A stretch of 64,000 nt of DNA, taken from contig NW_027590469.1 in the NCBI RefSeq assembly GCF_964213995.1, positions 1 through 64,000 of the forward strand, given 5' to 3'. The DNA is from Mustelus asterias. Lineage: Eukaryota. The position numbers and the translations under genes were made by a program. The first letter of the stretch is position 1. The number at the start of each line of letters is the position of its first letter. Of this stretch, positions 1 to 19,366 are shown in pieces. The notes beneath the pieces are model-generated. The model saw only the letters and a list, made by a program, of their open reading frames with translations, was not told the origin of the DNA and searched no databases.

Positions 1-549
1 TGACAAATATAAGGAGAAACATTGTATTGTGTGAGAGTTTCTTCTCATCTCCAAACCCAAACTGTACAGTGATAGCCATCCGCACTGTAAATGCAATCAC
101 TTTGTTCATACCCCCTCATTTAGTTACAGAAATCGGTAAAAATTCTTCTGATAAATGATGCTTTATTATTGTGATGTGACAGAGACCCGGAATTGTTGCA
201 ACACAGACTGACGGTCTCTTTATTTTCCACAATTGTTATTTCATCATTTTTAGATTTGTGTTCTTCTTGGGGGCGTGGTAATAAAATCACCATATTTACA
301 ATGGAATCAGTTATTTTAAATAAAGAAATGATGAACTGCAATATCACCATCAGAAATAATGGAGACAATACAATGAACATATTCAGCCAAACAAATATCC
401 AGACACAGATAAAATGTCCATTTTAATATTAACCTATTGTAAATCTGGAAGTCCATTCTGTTGGGGTGTGGAAGGTGGGACCTGGATCCTGTCGCCGCCT
501 CCAGCAGGGAAACAACAGGCGGCGCCTGGAAAGCCGCCCCCTTCTGGCG

Positions 550-563
550 GGTATTTAAATACC
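550..563 (+). promoter_or_regulatory. TATA-like box of the IgH promoter inside the palindrome GGTATTTAAATACC
   Basis: TATTTAAA at 552-559, about 90 bp upstream of the leader ATG, in a GC-rich context. Confidence 0.55.
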
Positions 564-650
564 GCTCACTGGGACCGGCATCCAACAGTCCGGGAGTTGG
601 TTTGTTCACTGAGTTCCTGACACAACCATTTCCCCCAAATCACCAGAAGG

Positions 651-696
651 ATGAGGTCGGCGATTTCTCTCAGTTTGTTGCTGACTTTCTTATCCG
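651..696 (+). CDS. IGHV: IgM VH leader exon (MRSAISLSLLLTFLS-g)
   Basis: ATG at 651, hydrophobic signal peptide, phase-1 donor GTGAGT at 697, acceptor TTTTACAG ending at 828. Confidence 0.95.
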
Positions 697-828
697 GTGA
701 GTAGTTGTTTTTCATTGTCTAAGTCTCCCACAGTTACTGTCTCAGTTTTAGTCCATCTCTGTAATATTCCAGAGTCAAAAATCATTACACCAGGATTAAT
801 CCTCGGGTTTTTTGATCTCTTTTTACAG

Positions 829-1135
829 GTGTCCAGTCGGAGGTTGTGTTGACTCAGCCAGAGGCAGAGACCGGGCGTCAAGGAGGCTCCCTGAAACTGA
901 CCTGTAAAACCAGCGGCTTCGATCTTAGCAGCTATAGCATGTACTGGATCCGACAGGTTCCAGGACAGGGGTTGGAGTGGCTGGTTTCCTACTATAGTTC
1001 ATCCAGCAACAGCTACGCCCCAGCAATTAAGGATCGATTTAGTGCGTCTAAAGACACTTCAACCAAAATCTTCTCTTTGGACATGACAAGGCTGAAGACC
1101 GAAGACACCGCCATCTATTACTGTGCAAGTGGGAT
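829..1135 (+). CDS. IGHV: IgM VH exon, probably germline-joined to D1 ([16 protein letters not shown]...[29 protein letters not shown]...[11 protein letters not shown])
   Basis: Open frame with canonical Cys, Trp (WIRQ) and YYC; elasmobranch VH motifs ([17 protein letters not shown]). Confidence 0.95.
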
Positions 1136-1173
1136 CACAGTGCTGAGCACAGCGACATCCTCATACAAAAACC
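1136..1173 (+). other. RSS 3' of V(D1): CACAGTG, 22-bp spacer, ACAAAAACC
   Basis: Consensus heptamer 1136-1142 and consensus nonamer 1165-1173. Confidence 0.95.
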
Positions 1174-1473
1174 TCATGGAAAGACATTGCTCAAATTGGT
1201 GATCAGTACCACAGCAGGAGTTTCAAAGTAAACGAGGCTTCAGTGAAATAATGTGTGGAAGTAATATTAGTTTGTGAAAAGGTATAAAAATCTTCCCATA
1301 AAATCTATATTTACCGATATGCTAAATCTACACAGAGAGTTTAAAAGCATTCCGATCCCCTTTATAAATACAATGACCAGGACAAGCTGAAATATCTCAC
1401 TCATTCGCTCGTGGATGAGGCAGAATCAGATTTTTGAGACAGCAGTGAAATTAAACAGTTAGCAGTCGGGCAC

Positions 1474-1542
1474 AGTATTTGTCATGCTGTGTCTCACTGT
1501 GATAACTGGGGTGGCACAGCAGTTACTGTCAATACAAAAACC
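1474..1542 (+). other. IGHD: DH segment ATAACTGGGGTGG (1502-1514) flanked by 12/12 RSSs (D2 type)
   Basis: 5' AGTATTTGT-12-CACTGTG (1474-1501); 3' CACAGCA-12-ACAAAAACC (1515-1542). Confidence 0.93.
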
Positions 1543-1869
1543 CCTCAGCACTAATTGACCGAGACTGGGGCAGTGCTCTGTTTTCCAATCCAGCATTGTT
1601 TACAGTGCTGTATTATTTATGTCCCAGCACTACACAAATAGCGAGAATTAATATGGAAAATGTATGATAACTATTTGATTATCAGTTGGTGTTTTCAGTA
1701 ACTTGATCATGTGATCCTCTATGAAATATAAAACATTAAGGTTATTTACGAAGAGCGAACGGTATCCACCAGTGCAATAATAATTTCATGAACATGCAGT
1801 GATTTGCTTTCCCTCTGGCTTGTGAATTTTTAAAATACTGATGGATTTCTGTCTATTTTGTGCAGAGAT

Positions 1870-1908
1870 GGTTATTGTATGACCCAGCCGAGAGAATGTG
1901 ACACTGTG
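1870..1908 (+). other. JH 5' RSS: GGTTATTGT, 23-bp spacer, CACTGTG
   Basis: Nonamer 1870-1878 and heptamer 1902-1908. Confidence 0.93.
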
Positions 1909-1956
1909 ACGCCATGGGCTACTGGGGACAAGGGACCATGGTGACGGTGACTGCAG
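1909..1956 (+). CDS. IGHJ: JH segment (AMGYWGQGTMVTVTA)
   Basis: WGxG motif; phase-1 donor GTAAG at 1957. Confidence 0.96.
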
Positions 1957-2260
1957 GTAAGAACCATGCATTTATTTAGTCAGTGTTTTATTTGAGTTTT
2001 TGTTTTATACTTTTTCTCGATTTTATTAATTCATTCGTTCAATGTAATGTGGTTTGGTGGATTCTGTGCTGAAAATCTTTACAATGTTTCATGTGATCCT
2101 GCTTAAAATGGGGGTTATAGAATTCTACTGTTAATTGACAAAAGGCGATACTGAGTGATTCAGTCTCTTGTTGTGATTTGGTGTTTATCTGCTGAGGACA
2201 TTGTGTGGCTGGGTTACTTTAAATGCATTCCTTTTGTTAAACAGTTCGGCGTTTCTTCAA

Positions 2261-4080
2261 TGTTTAATCTCGGTGACATCTAGTGGCTGCGAGTTGCACC
2301 ATCTACTGCACAAGTGTTTGAAATCTAACCCAATATTAACAAAATGTGTTAAAGTTTCTACTTTAATGTTGCGAACATGTTCCGCTTAATCACAATCTGG
2401 TTTTGTTATCTCATTGTTGTGCTTATTTTAATTATTAGTTGCTTTGGTGATGGTCAGATTGGCTGGATTTTAAATTGAGATTTTCTGCCAATGTGAAATT
2501 TGATTCTGTTGCAACTGTTTGTAGAATTGAGCTGCTTCTGCATGAACCGGGGTTCAGTCCCTCAGTGCTGCGTGTTTGCGGTGAGGAGGTTGTCTGTCTG
2601 GGTGACTTTGAATAAGTAAAATTTGTGAAATGGTTCGGAGATTCTGCACTGTTTACACTCGGTGACACTGAGCTGTTCCACACTTTGTGATTGAATACAA
2701 ACAGTCTGCGGATTTAAAACTACTTGACGTGTGCCTGCAGACAGAAATCAGGCAGGCTTTATTGTATTTGTATTTTTTTAAATCGTAGCTGATAATTGCA
2801 GGTTAAACCAAACCATGGTTTATGCCACTCGTCCAAAACATAGTTTGCCACTGCATTCATAATTTGGGATACATGCCATGTTTAACCTCGGTGGCATCTG
2901 ACGGCTGCAGCTTTTACCCACCCAATATTTAAATATGTTTGAAATCTGTTTGAAATATGACCCAATGTGAATAGAATGTGGTAAAATTTCAACGTTAATT
3001 TGTTGGACATATTCCACCTCCTCGCAATGCTATTGCTCTTATTCCAAATTTCTGTTTAGTTCAAACATTCATATATTTGGTGATGAGCTGGTTTGCCGGA
3101 TTGAATATTGAGAGTTCCTTGCAATCATATTTTTGATTTTGTTGAATGGATAATTGAGTTGCGTTCCCGTGAAACGGATTCATTCCCTCATTGATGTGTT
3201 TTGGTGTGTTTCTGTTGAGGAGGTTCTGTTGTTGGGTCACTAAGAATGTTTAAAATGTGTGAAAGGTTTTGGTGTTTCTGCATTGTTTAAACTCGGTGGC
3301 ACTGAGCGGTTACACGTTTTCTGGTTAAATGCAAATAATCTATGAGTTTGAAAATCCTTGTAGGGAGAAAATAAGCAGGTTGTGAAAGAAATAAAATAAA
3401 GGTATTACAGCATTTTTATAAATTTTAAACTCTTAGAAATTAAAATAAATCATGTCTTACAACGTTCAATCGGACACTGAGTAGTTGCTGCAAAAACAAA
3501 CTTCTCGTTAACAAGTTTGATAGTAAAATTAATATAAATCAAACTGTTATTAATCGGTAACATAACTACATATTCACAAAAGATTATTTTCTATTAATAT
3601 CATTTCGCATTAATCGGCTTTAATAGTTCTGCTGTGCTTTGCATACAATTAACATGACCAAAAAAGTTTCTCGGCTGGAAATATTTTGTGATAATTCCAG
3701 AAACTATTTCAATGGTAACATGCTGTTTCCACAGCAGCGCTCAGTTCAACAAGATACTTTGCATTAATTGTTATATCCCCGATGAAGTTCGCATTCACTT
3801 AAATATGAGTTTTGGAGAATAATTGGCAATAAAACGCTATTTGGCAATTTTTGTGCCCGATTATTACATTGTTTCTGTGCAGGCGCAGCATTCCTTCCAA
3901 GTAATTTGTAGTTGGATGCAGAGGTAATTAATCACTAATCTCATCTCAAAATTTGTGAAATGGTTTGGTGTTTCTCAATTGTTTCTGTATTGTTTCAACT
4001 CGGTGATCCTGAGCGGTTACACTTTTTCTCGCTAAATGAAAAAAACAAACTGCGTTTAAACATCCTTGTCAGGACAAAAC
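2261..4080 (+). repeat. Dispersed motif TGTTTAAACTCGGTGRCAYCTG (5 copies) in the J-proximal intron; candidate enhancer region
   Basis: Copies start at 2261, 2650, 2879, 3284 and 3991; octamer ATGCAAAT at 3329-3336. Confidence 0.6.
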
Positions 4081-6194
4081 AAACTGGTATCGGAAAAAAT
4101 AAAATAAATATATATTTGAGCGTTTTATTCATGTTAACTGATGCTTGCAGATTAAAGTAAATCATGAATTACAATTCTTACTGCGTCACTGTATCTCTGT
4201 TAGGGACATTACACTACCCTGGATCGGTTATATCTGATGTGCTCATTTTCAGAAAAAAGTATATTTTTTGCCTAGTTTTCGAGATTTGAGATAGACAGGG
4301 AGAAATAGTTAAAAGTCGAAGGGAATTTTGAAATGAATATCAGTTTAATTTAAAAGAAGTTATTGATTTTTGTTGTTGTAGTTTGAAAATTGATCAATTA
4401 GAATCCCACAGCTTAAATAAATTTGACAGAGTGAACACAGTTTTCTGACAGGTGGAATTCGCTAACACTAAACAATTGTTCATATAGCGGTGTTTGAATT
4501 GCCGTAAGGTGTCAACAGAAACTGGCTAGAGATTTACAATTTAATACTTGAAATTCAAATAATTAATTTTTTATAATATTATAATATTTTTATATTAATA
4601 TTTGCTCTGCATTTAATAATAACATCCTGTCTCCCATTACTGCTGAACATAGAATAGAATTATTGGATGAATAAATGACAGAATAGAAGAATTGATTCTA
4701 TTTGAGCATTATGTTTAATTAGTATTAAATATTATACTGAAGAAAAAGTCTCGACTTATTTTGTGCATCATGTTTCAGTGTTGCAGAGGATTTGAATCAA
4801 TTGTCCTCATTGCGTTTTTCATTGTTTAATTCAGAACTTCTTAATTTAAACAATATGTTCAGTAATTAAATTATATGGATGGTCCAAATTATTAAATCTA
4901 GGAAGCAGCTTCGTTGACCTCAAACTGCCAGGCCGTTACAGTATATACAAATTCAGAAACATGCATTCTTAACACGTTTGCAGGTTATAATAAGGCATTT
5001 GGAGTAAAAGTGGAAATGAAAAAACATGACAATGTTATTCGATTGAAGCAAATGAATTACAGATGTCTGAATCTTTCCATTCAGTAATTTGAAGTATATT
5101 GTTTAAGATTTAATTGGAACCTAATTACTTCACAATGTTGGAGGCAGGGAAAATTTTGAATGATTGAAAACTGATTTTATTATGGAGTACAAATCAGCTA
5201 ACAGGAAAAGTAACCGGCAATTAACAAAACAAAATATAATTTTGGTGCTAATTAATTCAAAACAAAATACCTTGAATAATGCACGGGCGTGCAAAGTATC
5301 ATCCGTTTTAGAGAACATTTAATTGTATCGAAAATGAATTCAGAGACAAAACCTTTCTTTCATCAGCTATGCTTAGCTCGGTAAGGTGTTTTACCTTGAA
5401 TATTTTGTTGATTACATTTAATTGAGAAATTAGATCGAATCAGGTAATGATTTTCAATGTAAATGTTTCTTGGTTTATTTTAATCCTTACTGTGTCACTG
5501 TATCTCTGTTAGGGACATTGAACTGTCCTGATTCTGTTATTTTTGATGCCTCATTTTCAGCGCAACTCCATTTTTACATAGTTTTCGAGAAGTGAGACAG
5601 ACAGAGAGACATAATTAAAAATCGACAGGAGTTTTGAAATGAATTTCAGTTTTATTCAAAAGAGGTTACTGATTTTCTGTTGTAAATTGATAATTGATCA
5701 ATTAGATTCAAACAGTTTGAATTAAATTGACAGATTGATCATACCTACCTGCTGGGAAATCGATTGTTGCACCGTTTGTGTCTGTTCTGTTTCTGCGCGC
5801 GTGGTCACCGTGTTGGGGCCAGGAAACTGCCTGACTGGCTATAAATCTTCTGGTTCATTCTCCTGTATTTCAGGGAGTTAAATTTGATTTATTTCTTCAT
5901 ACACTTGTATCTGTGAGAAATGTGATAGTTTGACTTGATGTTTGGCTCGGCGTCTCAGAAATGAGATCCCGAAAGCATATTGTGACCATCAGAGAGAGCA
6001 GAAACGTCAGATTGTAGAGGGAGATTTGGATGATTTTTAACTAGTGATGTACCGGCCTTGGGAATGTTCGATGAGCAAATGCAAAGTGAGATTTACTATA
6101 TTGTGCTCCGTAGTAAAGCAGTCCCTGATCTGTTTAGTATGACAGTTGAAGGGTCAAATTCATTTGCATTTTATTTTTAATCTTCTCAAGGCAT

Positions 6195-8355: not shown

Positions 8356-8560
8356 NNNNNNNNNNNNNNNNNNNNNNNNNNNNNNNNNNNNNNNNNNNNN
8401 NNNNNNNNNNNNNNNNNNNNNNNNNNNNNNNNNNNNNNNNNNNNNNNNNNNNNNNNNNNNNNNNNNNNNNNNNNNNNNNNNNNNNNNNNNNNNNNNNNNN
8501 NNNNNNNNNNNNNNNNNNNNNNNNNNNNNNNNNNNNNNNNNNNNNNNNNNNNNNNNNNNN
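8356..8560. other. Assembly gap (205 N)
   Basis: Run of N. Confidence 1.
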
Positions 8561-11340: not shown

Positions 11341-11640
11341 CGACACCGTCTTCGCCCACTCTCTACAGCCTCGTCTCTTCCTGTCAGCAACACAACTCCG
11401 CTGGCTCCATCACCTACGGCTGTTTGGCGATGGACTACTCTCCAGATGTCTCCAAACTGACCTGGAAGAAAAATGGGCAGCTGATCGCCACTGGATTTAA
11501 GACTTATCCATCAGTGAGAAACGCGAAGGGAACCTATACCCTGAGCAGCCAGTTAACCATCACCCAGTCAGAGGGAGAGTGCAGCAAAATCGACTGTGAG
11601 GTTCGACACAGCGACTCCGTCAAGAGCATTGGAATGCAAT
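11341..11640 (+). CDS. IGHM: IgM Cmu1 exon ([14 protein letters not shown]...[10 protein letters not shown]...TWKKNG...CEVRH...GMQ)
   Basis: Acceptor TTCCCAG at 11340, donor GTAAGT at 11641, phase 1/1, Ig C1-set Cys/Trp/Cys. Confidence 0.95.
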
Positions 11641-11789
11641 GTAAGTGTTGTGGAACTTGGGCAAGACAGGAACGCTCTGATTGAACTGTATAAGGCTTTA
11701 GTTATAACTGATATGTAGCATTCTGAAAAAAATTGAATTATTCAAAATCCAAGTAAGTGTCTACTGACTGAAAAGTTGTTCAGAACCAA

Positions 11790-12530
11790 AGAACAACAGG
11801 ACTGTTACTGTGCAGAATGAGGCCATTGAGCCCATCATGTCTGTGCTGGCCGAAAGGGAGAACAAATAAACTAGCCAGACATTTGGAGCCCATTTTCCAG
11901 CCCTTGCGCCGTAGCCGTGCAGGTTAAAGCACCTGAGATGCAGACGTAATGACCTTTTAAATGACCATGCTCCCTGGTAATTGAGCCCTCGACTTGGGGA
12001 ATGAATTATTTCTGCCTACGTCCCTTCTAATTTTGTGAACCACAATTATGTCACGCCTCAGCCTCCTCTTTTTCTCAGGAGAAAAACCCCTGCCTATCCA
12101 ATCTCGCCTCATGGCGGGAATTTTCAGTCCCTGGCACCATTCTTGTCAGCGTCATCTCTCTCTAGAGCCATTACGTCATTCCTGCAACGTGGTGACCAGA
12201 ACTGAACAGCAAACTCCAAACGTAGCCTACCTAGCGTTTTATACAGCTCCATCATTGCATCACTGTTTTTGCATTCAATATCTCACATAATAGAGGAACT
12301 AATCCGATATGCTTTCTTGATCAACTTTTCCAGCTGCCCGACCATCTACAAGGACCTGTGGACATGCACTCCATGGTCTTGCATTTCCTCAATCCCTCGA
12401 AATCTTCCATTTTATCGACTATTCCCTTGCTTTGTTTGCCCTCCCAAATTCATTGCGTGGCACTTTTGACGGTTGAATTCCATTCGCTATTTCCCTACCA
12501 ATTCAACAAAACCATGGATATAATTCCCAA
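11790..12530 (-). mobile_element. CR1 LINE 3' fragment
   Basis: Reverse-complement CR1 RT C-terminal motifs (GTGGTGACCAGAACTG on the + strand). Confidence 0.7.
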
Positions 12531-12620
12531 ATTGGCAGCTCCGGTGCTAAAATAAAAGCATTAATTTTAATTGTTGTCAGTTGAACCTTCAAGTAACGTC
12601 TAAACTTGTGTTTGTTGAAG

Positions 12621-12926
12621 GCGACATCCCCCCAACCGTTATCCTCACCGTGAGTTCCAGTGAAGAAATCACAAGCAGGAAATTTGCAACCATCGTCTGT
12701 TCAATCATCGATTTCCAGCCAAAGTCAATGACGGTGGAGTGGCTGAAGAATGGGCAGCCCATGGATTCAGGAATTGCCACCTCTCCTGCCTGTGAAGTGA
12801 ACGGAAACTTCTCTGCGAGCAGTCGGCTGACAGTCTCCGCTGGGGAATGGTTCAGCAAAACGGTCTATACCTGCCAGGTCACTCATCAAGGACTCACTCA
12901 GAGTCAGAACATCACCGGATCTCTGG
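12621..12926 (+). CDS. IGHM: IgM Cmu2 exon (DIPPTVILT...[12 protein letters not shown]...WLKNG...YTCQVTH...ITGSL)
   Basis: Acceptor AG at 12619-12620, donor GTAAG at 12927, open frame. Confidence 0.95.
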
Positions 12927-13818
12927 GTAAGGGATGCAAACCGAGGGAAAACAAATCATTCCGCTGTTAATCGGAATTAGAGATTTATTGAAGTTCGTGC
13001 GAAGCATAGAGCTGTCATGTAGTTTGCTGCAGGCGGATAGCGCCTCATTCAGAATTTCATCACATCAGCAATTATTTTTATTCTGTCATGAGATGTTCTT
13101 CATGGCCCATCCCTGACAGCACTTAAGAGTCGACGACGTTGCTGTGGATCTGGAGTCACATGCATGCCAGAGCAAGATAAAGACAGCAGATTTACATTTT
13201 AAAAGGGCATTCGTGAACCATTTACAGCAATGGCTTCATAATGATCGTTAGACTTTTAAATATCGTTTTTTAATAAAATCAAATTTGACCATTTGTGGTG
13301 GTGAGATTCGAATCTATAACCCCAGACTTTTGCCCTAGGTTACAAACCCATTGATAACACCACCATGCCACTGCCTCTCCTTGAAACAATGCGCCCTTCT
13401 ATTTTGAAGTAATATAGTGACCGAGGCGGACTTGATGTCAGCTTCTCCTGACACAGCTGGTAAAATTTGGAGAAACAGTAGGTGTCGGACTGTTTCACAG
13501 GTCACAGCGTAGGGGTAAAATGTTGGAAAGTGCATCCACCCTACTTATAAACCAACGGCCATTAATTTTTCCTGAGTTCAGGATGGTCTATTTGTGTGGG
13601 AATGCTGCAATGCTGATTCATGAGAATGATACCGCTGCTACAATACTTTAATAAAGAGAATAATTTCACAGAGCAACCTGGTTTTCCATTCACCATAGAA
13701 GTTGAAAGGCGATAGTTAGAGTTTGATAACTCGAAGGCGACTTCGTCTCCTTTAGGCTGAATACTGCTGTCCTGCTTCTGAAGGAGAACTCGAGTTGGTT
13801 TTCATTTTTCATTCACAG

Positions 13819-14127
13819 GTCCTTCCCAGTGCCCGGATTCCACAGTCACAATACAACCACCACCAATAGAACAAGTCTTACTCGAGGCGACTGTGACCTT
13901 AACCTGTATCATTTTCAATTCTCCTTCTGGAGTCAACGTGTCCTGGATCCGAGACAGGAATTATTTGAAATCAGAGATTGCAGAAAAGCCTGGAGAGGAT
14001 CCTGACAGCGTGGTCAGCAACTGAAACATCTCGACACAAGCCTGGCTGAGTGGGGCTGTGTTTGACTGCGTGGTGAGCCATCAGGATCTGCCGACTCCTT
14101 TAAGAAAATCCATCCACAAGGAAAGAG
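13819..14127 (+). pseudogene. IGHM: IgM Cmu3 exon with in-frame TGA at 14022-14024
   Basis: [29 protein letters not shown]...VSW...[38 protein letters not shown]; splice sites intact and frame continues after the stop. Confidence 0.92.
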
Positions 14128-14602
14128 GTGAGCTGAGAGATTGAAGCAACAAATGCGTCACTGTGTCTATTTCCAGTGTAAGTGTAATGGTCAATACTTA
14201 GTATTCAGTGCATTACCACTCCTCTGAGTGGTAACTCTGCTAACTAAACGCTCTGGGCCTGTAGATATTTTTGCGTGGGATGTTGATGAATGAAAAGTGA
14301 TCTGAAGAGAATGGTATTGGTTTATGATCGAATAAGTAGGGAGTAGTCTGGTGTGGTGCACAAAACCCAACGCAGAACAGTTGGGCCGAATAGCCTGTTT
14401 CTGTGTTGTAATCTTTCTGAAACTTTCCAGTCTAGCCCCAGTTATTTGACAAAGCGATTGTGTTCCCCTCTCCTCGAAGCAGGAAGTCAAAAATGGAAAC
14501 ATTTAAATTCGAAAGCAAAGCACAATTTTCTGATATCTAACCAGTGTTTTCATTGTTTGCAGAGTTCTCCAGTTTATTGACATTTATTGCAATTTTCTGC
14601 AG

Positions 14603-14994
14603 ATCCAAATCCGCGGAGACCGTCCGTCTCTGTCCTCCTGCCCTCGGCAGAACAAATATCCGCTCAGAAATTCGTCTCCCTCAGCTGCTTAGTGAGAGGT
14701 TTCTCCCCCCGAGAGGTCTTCGTCAAGTGGACCGTCAATGACCAGCCCGTGAATCCCGGGAACTACAGGAACACCGAGGTGGTGGCGGAGAACGGGAATG
14801 GCTCCTTCTTCATGTACAGCCTGTTATCCATTGCAGCGGAGGAGTGGGCCAGCGGCACTTCTTACTCCTGCGTGGTGGGACATGAAGCCATCCCCTTGAA
14901 GATCATCAACAAAACAGTTGACAAATCCAGCGGTAAACCCAGTTTTGTGAACATTTCTCCTGTACTGGTGGACCCCGTTAGTTCATGTCAATGA
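14603..14994 (+). CDS. IGHM: IgM Cmu4 exon plus secretory tailpiece (...[19 protein letters not shown]|[20 protein letters not shown])
   Basis: Acceptor CAG at 14602; internal membrane-form donor G|GTAAA at 14932/14933; penultimate Cys; AATAAA at 15031-15036. Confidence 0.96.
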
Positions 14995-15156
14995 GAATCT
15001 ATTGGTTATATTTCGAGCTGCAAGAAAAATAATAAAGCTTTTTTCATCTGCTTATGAGTTAAACATCCAACCTGCTAATTCATTTTGATTCCTCTGTTTG
15101 CTATGGGCATAAATGCTCCTCCGACAGCAGATACTTACCAGTGTCTTGCCTCCCTA

Positions 15157-19241: not shown

Positions 19242-19366
19242 ATTCCACAGAATCCACCTGGATTGAAGACCAGGATGATAACAGCAATATCTGGACAACT
19301 GCTTCGACTTTCATAGTCCTGTTCTTCCTGAGCATGTCCTACAGCGCTGCCGTCACTCTGGTGAAG
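19242..19366 (+). CDS. IGHM: IgM TM1 exon (DSTESTWIEDQDDNSNIWTTASTFIVLFFLSMSYSAAVTLVK)
   Basis: CART-type motif WTTASTFIVLF..S..YS..VT; acceptor CAG at 19241; donor GTGAG at 19367. Confidence 0.95.

What the first reader, a model, noticed from the sequence alone, without database searches (positions are those of the whole stretch)
1121..1542. IgM cluster appears germline pre-joined V-D1 (VD-D-J), with a microhomology join and no N bases
Seen: the V ends TGT GCA AGT GGG AT (C-A-S-G, not C-A-R), followed by an RSS with a 22-bp spacer. Only one free D (12/12 RSS) lies between V and J, and no other CACTGTG heptamer occurs in 1174-1470. Known (from memory): shark IgM clusters are V-23/12-D1-22/12-D2-12/23-J, D1 typically ends in an AGTGGG-type motif, and germline-joined clusters occur. 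Inference: AGTGGGAT plus the RSS is D1's 3' half fused to V through a shared AG. This would be a fossil RAG event in the germline without TdT, fixing part of CDR3 while leaving two junctions to rearrange.
Basis: partly seen in the sequence, partly recalled or inferred. Interest (0 to 1): 0.7.

Follow-up and report, generated by a model that had tools for sequence, protein, structure and literature searches.

The report
Half-joined shark antibody gene copy
In this shark antibody (IgM heavy-chain) gene the first two pieces, V and D1, are already fused, likely as an inherited cut-and-join event of a kind long known in sharks, and a stop codon further down the gene makes this copy likely dead.

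Summary
Observation confirmed. The 22-bp signal after the V end is the D1 3' RSS, and 1136-1501 is the D1-D2 interval (98.6% to an unjoined paralogue). About 450 bp, with both inner RSSs, are missing. The joint has a 2-nt AG overlap and no N bases, but overlaps of 2 or more arise in about 1 of 5 random N-less joins. The joint also equals a sister cluster's joint minus 4 nt. Germline origin is likely (about 0.85), not shown. No unjoined copy of this allele turned up, and partial joins are common here: 21 of 55 loci examined (selection biased to joined ones), 15 distinct types, some repeated on several contigs. Against: the joint lies 1.1 kb from the contig start, and V-D1 is the favoured step in shark lymphocytes. 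From 13.5 kb on, the contig is about 99.8% identical to one carrying a fully joined VDJ, so the two may be alleles. Partly germline-joined shark IgM clusters with little TdT trace are published, and this scan noted the same configuration in another genome. Ordinary; interest 0.25.

The parts
651..696 (+). Leader exon (MRSAISLSLLLTFLS), GT donor intact
829..1129 (+). VH exon, open frame, Pfam V-set; ends TGT GCA AG (3' end trimmed 4-6 nt against paralogues)
1128..1129 (+). AG overlap, assignable to V or D1; no N bases
   Evidence: chance level
1128..1135 (+). 3' remnant of D1 (AGTGGGAT); the GGGAT end followed by this RSS occurs only here and on contig C479
   Evidence: unjoined D1 running into position 1128 in run X5, table 7
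1136..1173 (+). D1 3' RSS, 22-bp spacer, perfect heptamer and nonamer
1174..1473 (+). D1-D2 intersegment DNA
1474..1501 (-). D2 5' RSS, 12-bp spacer
1502..1514 (+). D2 coding segment, the commonest D2 variant (21 of 43 loci)
1515..1542 (+). D2 3' RSS, 12-bp spacer, same as in most unjoined close paralogues
1870..1908 (-). J RSS, 23-bp spacer
1909..1956 (+). JH (AMGYWGQGTMVTVTA), GT donor intact
11341..11640 (+). Cmu1 exon, open
12621..12926 (+). Cmu2 exon, open
13819..14127 (+). Cmu3 exon with in-frame TGA at 14022-14024 (TTA in 16 of 16 other copies inspected)
14603..14994 (+). Cmu4 plus secretory tail, open
19242..19366 (+). Transmembrane exon, open

Best explanation
This is a shark IgM heavy-chain cluster in which V and D1 are already fused (VD1-D2-J), likely by RAG cutting in an ancestor's germ cell, and the copy is likely non-functional because Cmu3 carries a stop codon. 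Shown: about 450 bp between V and D1 are gone with both RSSs, the ends are trimmed, no untemplated bases are present, and the remaining 22/12 and 12/23 RSS pairs are intact. Inferred: RAG paired the V 23-RSS with the D1 5' 12-RSS, the hairpin ends were opened, trimmed and joined without TdT additions, and the product was inherited. Inferred: in lymphocytes the cluster could still do VD1-to-D2 and D2-to-J, giving CDR3s that start C-A-S-G and run shorter than usual, but transcripts would stop in Cmu3 and give no membrane receptor. Inferred: the cluster body is a patchwork made by gene conversion or unequal crossing-over among about 97%-identical clusters.
For: Anatomy. No unjoined version of this copy was found in the assembly: best other matches are 97% for leader-V, 97% for the upstream 640 bp and 98% for the J-C intron (about 40 best candidates scored in each). 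Its nearest relative in the D1-J region (C479: 8 substitutions, two 1-nt indels and the 4-nt junction difference in 989-2577) shares the unique D1 end and is also V-D1 joined, 28 kb inside a 290-kb contig. Joining is inherited in this lineage: the same VDD joint stands on C87 and C71 (99.6% alike), another on C1179 and C1007 (98.4%) with a one-lineage relative on C91 (84%), and the C1179-type joint is also in another sample, run X4 (table 7). 5 of 7 distinct V-D1 joints need no N bases, as described for germline-joined shark light chains (PMC2193156, section 17 read), whereas somatic shark joints show trimming with N/P addition (PMC2435157, section 10 read). No hypermutation footprint: 6 private letters in 1-1124, two of them upstream of the leader, none in 1136-2600. 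Cmu3 stop.
Against: The joint lies 1.1 kb from the start of contig C437, where few reads may support the consensus. V-to-D1 joining is the more frequent step in shark lymphocytes and thymocytes (PMC2435157, section 10). This exact joint occurs once in the assembly. 2 of 7 distinct V-D1 joints need extra or diverged letters. The Cmu3 stop rests on one assembled base with no read check. The tissue of origin is unknown.
Confidence: 0.85

Rival explanations
1. Germline, but not an independent microhomology join: one ancestral V-D1 join (the C479 form, TGTGCA CTAC AGTGGGAT) was copied by duplication or gene conversion and later lost 4 nt, so the AG overlap is a coincidence. This is a sub-case of the germline reading and its confidence lies inside the 0.85.
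For: The window joint equals the C479 joint minus CTAC. The two share a D1 end found nowhere else in the assembly. C479 is the nearest locus in FR3 (3 mismatches in 138 nt) and pairs with the window in the D1-J tree (94/76, below the tool's starred threshold). Overlap of 2 or more has a chance level of about 0.2.
Against: The deletion would have to start exactly at the V/D1 boundary with no slippage repeat; other indels between the two copies in 1-3050 are five single-base ones. Independent joins are frequent here: V-D1 joined loci sit in several separate clades.
Confidence: 0.2
2. Somatic: a lymphocyte or thymocyte read with a one-step V-D1 rearrangement formed the tip of the contig, and the inherited copy is unjoined.
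For: Joint 1.1 kb from the contig start. Somatic VD-D-J intermediates are seen in shark thymus and spleen DNA (PMC2435157, passages and section 10). Near-identical unjoined, V-DD-J and VDD-J copies of another cluster coexist in this assembly (99.4-99.9%), so very recent or somatic joins may be present.
Against: No N bases. No unjoined counterpart near 100% identity for any part of 1-5600 that was searched, though most reads would carry it. The sister copy with the same D1 variant is also joined, deep inside a contig. In nurse shark, somatic light-chain joins were not visible above germline even in blood lymphocyte DNA (PMC2193156, passage).
Confidence: 0.1
3. Simple loss of D1 by a RAG-independent deletion between the two similar heptamers, with TGTGCAAGTGGGAT being the V's own end.
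For: 2 of 39 unjoined V ends finish in GAT (L038, L045).
Against: All 39 unjoined V ends are 12 nt from TGT, the window has 14. AGTGGG(x)T is the D1 core, and C479 shows a longer D1 piece (CTACAGTGGGAT) ending in the same letters. In run X5 an unjoined D1 with its 5' RSS runs into window position 1128.
Confidence: 0.02
4. Assembly chimera of reads from different clusters.
For: The cluster body is a mosaic: closest to C479/C124/C109 at 1-2.5 kb, to C166 at 4.5-8 kb, to C2117 at 11.5-13.5 kb, then about 99.8% to C166.
Against: No piece of 1-13.5 kb is identical over a long stretch to any of 10 clusters compared, and merging reads of unjoined clusters cannot create a precise V-D1 joint.
Confidence: 0.03

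Closest known systems
Partly germline-joined IgM heavy-chain clusters of sharks and skates (VD-J, VD-DJ; PMC5192425, PMC4279169, PMC2193156, passages seen; the original horn shark paper, Kokubu et al. 1988, seen only as a reference-list entry)
   Same: V-D1-D2-J-C minilocus with some junctions already made in genomic DNA, RSSs excised, mixed with unjoined clusters in one genome.
   Different: Here only V-D1 is joined and D2 and J keep their RSSs. The passages seen list VD-J, VD-DJ and VDJ and do not name germline VD1-D2-J; their shorthand may cover it. This copy also has a Cmu3 stop.
Germline-joined NS4 light-chain genes of nurse shark (Lee et al. 2000, PMC2193156; section 17 and passages read)
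   Same: Joined genes derived from split ones, trimmed ends, occasional P bases, little evidence of TdT, several independent and recent events.
   Different: Light chain with a single V-J step, shown in erythrocyte DNA of several animals; here a heavy-chain first step without tissue proof.
Somatic one-step (1R) VD-D-J intermediates in nurse shark B cells and thymocytes (Malecek et al. 2008, PMC2435157; section 10 and passages read)
   Same: Same configuration; V-to-D1 is the more frequent join.
   Different: Those are cell-specific, each unique, with N/P additions, and absent from erythrocytes.
IgM1gj of nurse shark (PMC4279169, passage)
   Same: Germline-joined IgM heavy chain.
   Different: IgM1gj is fully VDJ-joined, lacks Cmu2 and is expressed in neonates; this cluster is one-third joined, has four C exons and a stop in Cmu3.

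Membership tests
Elasmobranch IgM heavy-chain cluster | Leader, one V, D segments and one J within about 2 kb, followed by its own C exons | tested here: met
Elasmobranch IgM heavy-chain cluster | Four C domains, secretory tail ending in Cys-x, transmembrane exon | tested here: met
   three full C1-set hits, Cmu3 hit weak because only the part before the stop was given
Functional IgM cluster | Open reading frame through all C exons | tested here: not met
   TGA at 14022-14024; TTA in 16 of 16 other copies; not checked on reads
Functional IgM cluster | Rearranged transcripts in lymphoid tissue | not testable with these tools
   one search listed no holder on record as RNA; this is no evidence either way
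RAG-type V(D)J coding joint | Both RSSs and the DNA between them removed, breakpoints at the coding ends, 23/12 pair | tested here: met
RAG-type V(D)J coding joint | P nucleotides as sign of a hairpin intermediate | tested here: inconclusive
   none can remain, both ends are trimmed; paralogue L029 has a candidate P base
Partly germline-joined IgH cluster | Derived from an unjoined cluster of the same family | tested here: met
   nested with unjoined loci in a 100/97 clade of the D1-J tree, 43 loci
Partly germline-joined IgH cluster | Joint present in non-lymphoid DNA or in several individuals | tested here: inconclusive
   indirect only; tissue of the assembly unknown
Partly germline-joined IgH cluster | Few or no N bases | tested here: met

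The most novel reading that the evidence does not exclude
Germline RAG activity in this shark is frequent and ongoing, so IgM loci segregate for joining state: this animal carries, at one locus, a V-D1-joined allele (C437) opposite an independently and fully joined in-frame VDJ allele (C166), and joined segments spread between clusters by gene conversion. With at least 15 distinct joint types, including a near-identical unjoined, V-DD-J, VDD-J series, the genome would allow a direct measure of the rate, step order and end processing of RAG in germ cells.
Probability: 0.3. Interest if true: 0.55.

Novelty: new member of a known kind. Interest (0 to 1): 0.25.

Why it matters
Taken alone it matters little: one more partly pre-joined shark IgM cluster, probably dead. 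As part of the set in this genome it is a useful data point on RAG acting in germ cells. Most V-D1 joints lack N bases, and joins arose many times independently and some recently. If the allelic reading holds, individual sharks differ in which antibody genes are pre-joined, which would make the open question of germline RAG rate testable with population long reads.

Tried and rejected
Public runs: 20 were listed, no RNA holder listed; 4 of the 20 were laid on 1040-1260. No listed piece bridged the joint, and in X1, X3 and X4 the depth at 1136-1143 equals the one unjoined-D1 contig. The tool filters records and it is not known whether these runs are the same species, so this is not used as evidence. 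A read check of the Cmu3 stop and of the flank was not obtained. C437 as a full haplotig of C166: collinear at 99.8% to 74 kb, through a satellite at 120-130 kb, 97.6% at 197-200 kb, but not found at the expected C166 places for 250-260 kb and 307-317 kb; a piece at 252 kb matches C108 at about 100%. Allele versus recent duplicate is therefore open. Somatic hypermutation as the source of the V differences: rejected (in one search one locus, L011, was mis-extracted and ignored). The first Cmu3/Cmu4 translation was out of frame and was redone. Papers not held: PMC454840, PMC2590587, PMC420240. For PMC2191167 and PMC2192082 only abstract and reference text were seen. The supplement of PMC2435157 with somatic junction sequences could not be read, so the share of N-less somatic V-D1 joints is unknown to me. 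Five paper searches gave no passage naming a germline VD1-D2-J cluster, but the key primary papers are outside the library, so absence from print is not claimed.

Full report
Observation. The window starts at base 1 of contig C437 (317 kb) of a 3.68-Gb assembly. It holds a leader (651-696), an open VH exon, one free D (1502-1514, 12/12 RSS), a J (1909-1956, 23-RSS), four C exons with a secretory tail and a transmembrane exon. The V ends TGT GCA AGT GGG AT, then a perfect heptamer, a 22-bp spacer and a perfect nonamer (1136-1173).

What the joint is. A search of the own genome with 1100-1560 returned many paralogues that match query 1-30 and 29-461 separately, about 450 bp apart. In them the layout is V-23 / 12-D1-22 / 12-D2-12 / 23-J. 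The window's spacer is their D1 3' spacer, and 1136-1501 is their D1-D2 interval (98.6% to L005). The V-D1 interval is absent from the window. The deletion is 448-452 bp against four unjoined loci. Against the ends seen in unjoined loci, V lost 4-6 nt and D1 7-9 nt, with AG shared and nothing added. Both RSSs are gone and both breaks lie a few bases inside the coding ends, as expected of a RAG coding joint (established mechanism; PMC2193156, passage). Simple D1 loss is rejected: all 39 unjoined V ends are 12 nt long from TGT, and the sister locus C479 shows a longer D1 piece ending in the same letters.

How much the microhomology says. Enumerating 88 blunt joins for each of three V/D pairs, 20-23% show an apparent overlap of 2 nt or more, so AG is not evidence of homology-directed joining. 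The D1 end GGGAT plus this RSS occurs only on C437 and C479, and the window joint equals the C479 joint minus CTAC. Two independent joins of a shared D1 variant seem more likely to me than one join with a later deletion exactly at the boundary (inference, roughly 3 to 1), but the second is not excluded.

Germline or somatic. I classified 55 cluster loci of this assembly, the window included. They were the top search hits, with later picks favouring loci that looked joined, and some are redundant haplotigs. 34 are unjoined and 21 joined: 9 VD-D-J (7 distinct joints), 3 V-D-DJ (2), 2 V-DD-J (2), 6 VDD-J (3 lineages), 1 VDJ. Some joints recur on diverged contigs (C87/C71; C1179/C1007/C91), and one appears in another sample, X4, so joining is inherited in this lineage. 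V-D1 joined loci fall in several clades of the D1-J tree of the 43 loci that keep that interval, so the event recurred. 5 of 7 V-D1 joints need no N bases and one of those has a candidate P base; 2 need extra or diverged letters. For the window itself no unjoined counterpart was found: best other matches are 97-99% in every part of 1-5600 searched, and it shows no hypermutation footprint. Against: the joint is 1.1 kb from the contig start, occurs once in the assembly, and V-to-D1 is the more frequent somatic join in nurse shark lymphocytes (PMC2435157, section 10). I put germline at 0.85 and somatic at 0.10.

Function. The V frame, splice sites and the remaining RSS pairs are intact, so the cluster could finish rearranging in two steps (inference). 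However, Cmu3 has an in-frame TGA at 14022-14024, where 16 of 16 other copies have TTA. Unless the base is an assembly error or Cmu3 is skipped, no full heavy chain results. The fixed CDR3 start is therefore most likely without function.

Context. From 13.5 kb to at least 74 kb the contig is about 99.8% identical to C166, whose cluster at the matching place carries an unrelated, in-frame, fully joined VDJ (CARHVQQWGMGYW) and an intact codon at the Cmu3 site. The first 13.5 kb are a patchwork of closest matches to different clusters. Further along, C437 matches C108 instead. It is either the second haplotype of the region or a recent duplicate; this was not resolved.

Comparison with what is known. 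Reviews state that many shark and skate IgM clusters are partly (VD-J, VD-DJ) or fully joined in the germline through RAG in germ cells (PMC5192425, PMC4279169; passages seen). Lee et al. 2000 showed for light chains that such joins are recent, repeated and show little TdT activity (PMC2193156; section 17 and passages). The passages I saw do not name germline VD1-D2-J, but the primary heavy-chain papers were not available. Earlier AI notes of this scan report the same configuration in another genome and other partial joins in this one; they are unchecked and not counted as support.

Verdict. A real V-D1 joint, likely germline, in a likely dead IgM copy; a new member of a known kind. Interest 0.25. 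The allelic and ongoing-activity reading has probability about 0.3 and would deserve 0.55.

Noticed in passing
G000:C166:442602-443300 (L042) against window 13500-64000: A fully joined, in-frame VDJ cluster (CARHVQQWGMGYW) sits on a contig about 99.8% identical to the window downstream of 13.5 kb; it may be the other allele of this locus. Candidate P bases GT follow the untrimmed V end.
   Followed up: partly
L060 (C127), L047 (C306), L046 (C667): Three copies 99.4-99.9% alike form a series: unjoined, V-DD-J, VDD-J, the last carrying the same D-D joint as the second. Stepwise recent germline joining, or a somatic step caught in the assembly.
   Followed up: partly
L024 (C166, near 172.6 kb): The D2 position holds a D1-like coding piece (ATACAGCAGTG) between D2-type RSSs while D1 is intact upstream; the piece equals the D-D joint of L047, perhaps copied by conversion.
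   Followed up: no
L003, L009, L010, L013, L020, L021, L024: The D1 3' heptamer reads CACTGTG instead of CACAGTG in these unjoined clusters, which may weaken or change D1-D2 joining.
   Followed up: no
L026/L027 (C971, C143) and L050-L052 (C2355, C872, C122): Joined clusters present as 100% identical copies on two or three contigs; the assembly keeps redundant haplotigs, so locus counts are inflated.
   Followed up: partly
window 11500-15000: Cmu2-Cmu4 belong to a minority constant-region subfamily (87-93% to most clusters, 95-100% to seven), while V-D-J and Cmu1 belong to the main family.
   Followed up: partly
window 25826-27412: A 529-residue stop-to-stop frame with a weak DUF4371 hit below the Pfam cut-off; it looks like a hAT-type transposase (family name from recall).
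   Followed up: no
window 8356-8560: 205 N in the J-C intron, far from the joint and the exons.
   Followed up: no
   Followed up: no
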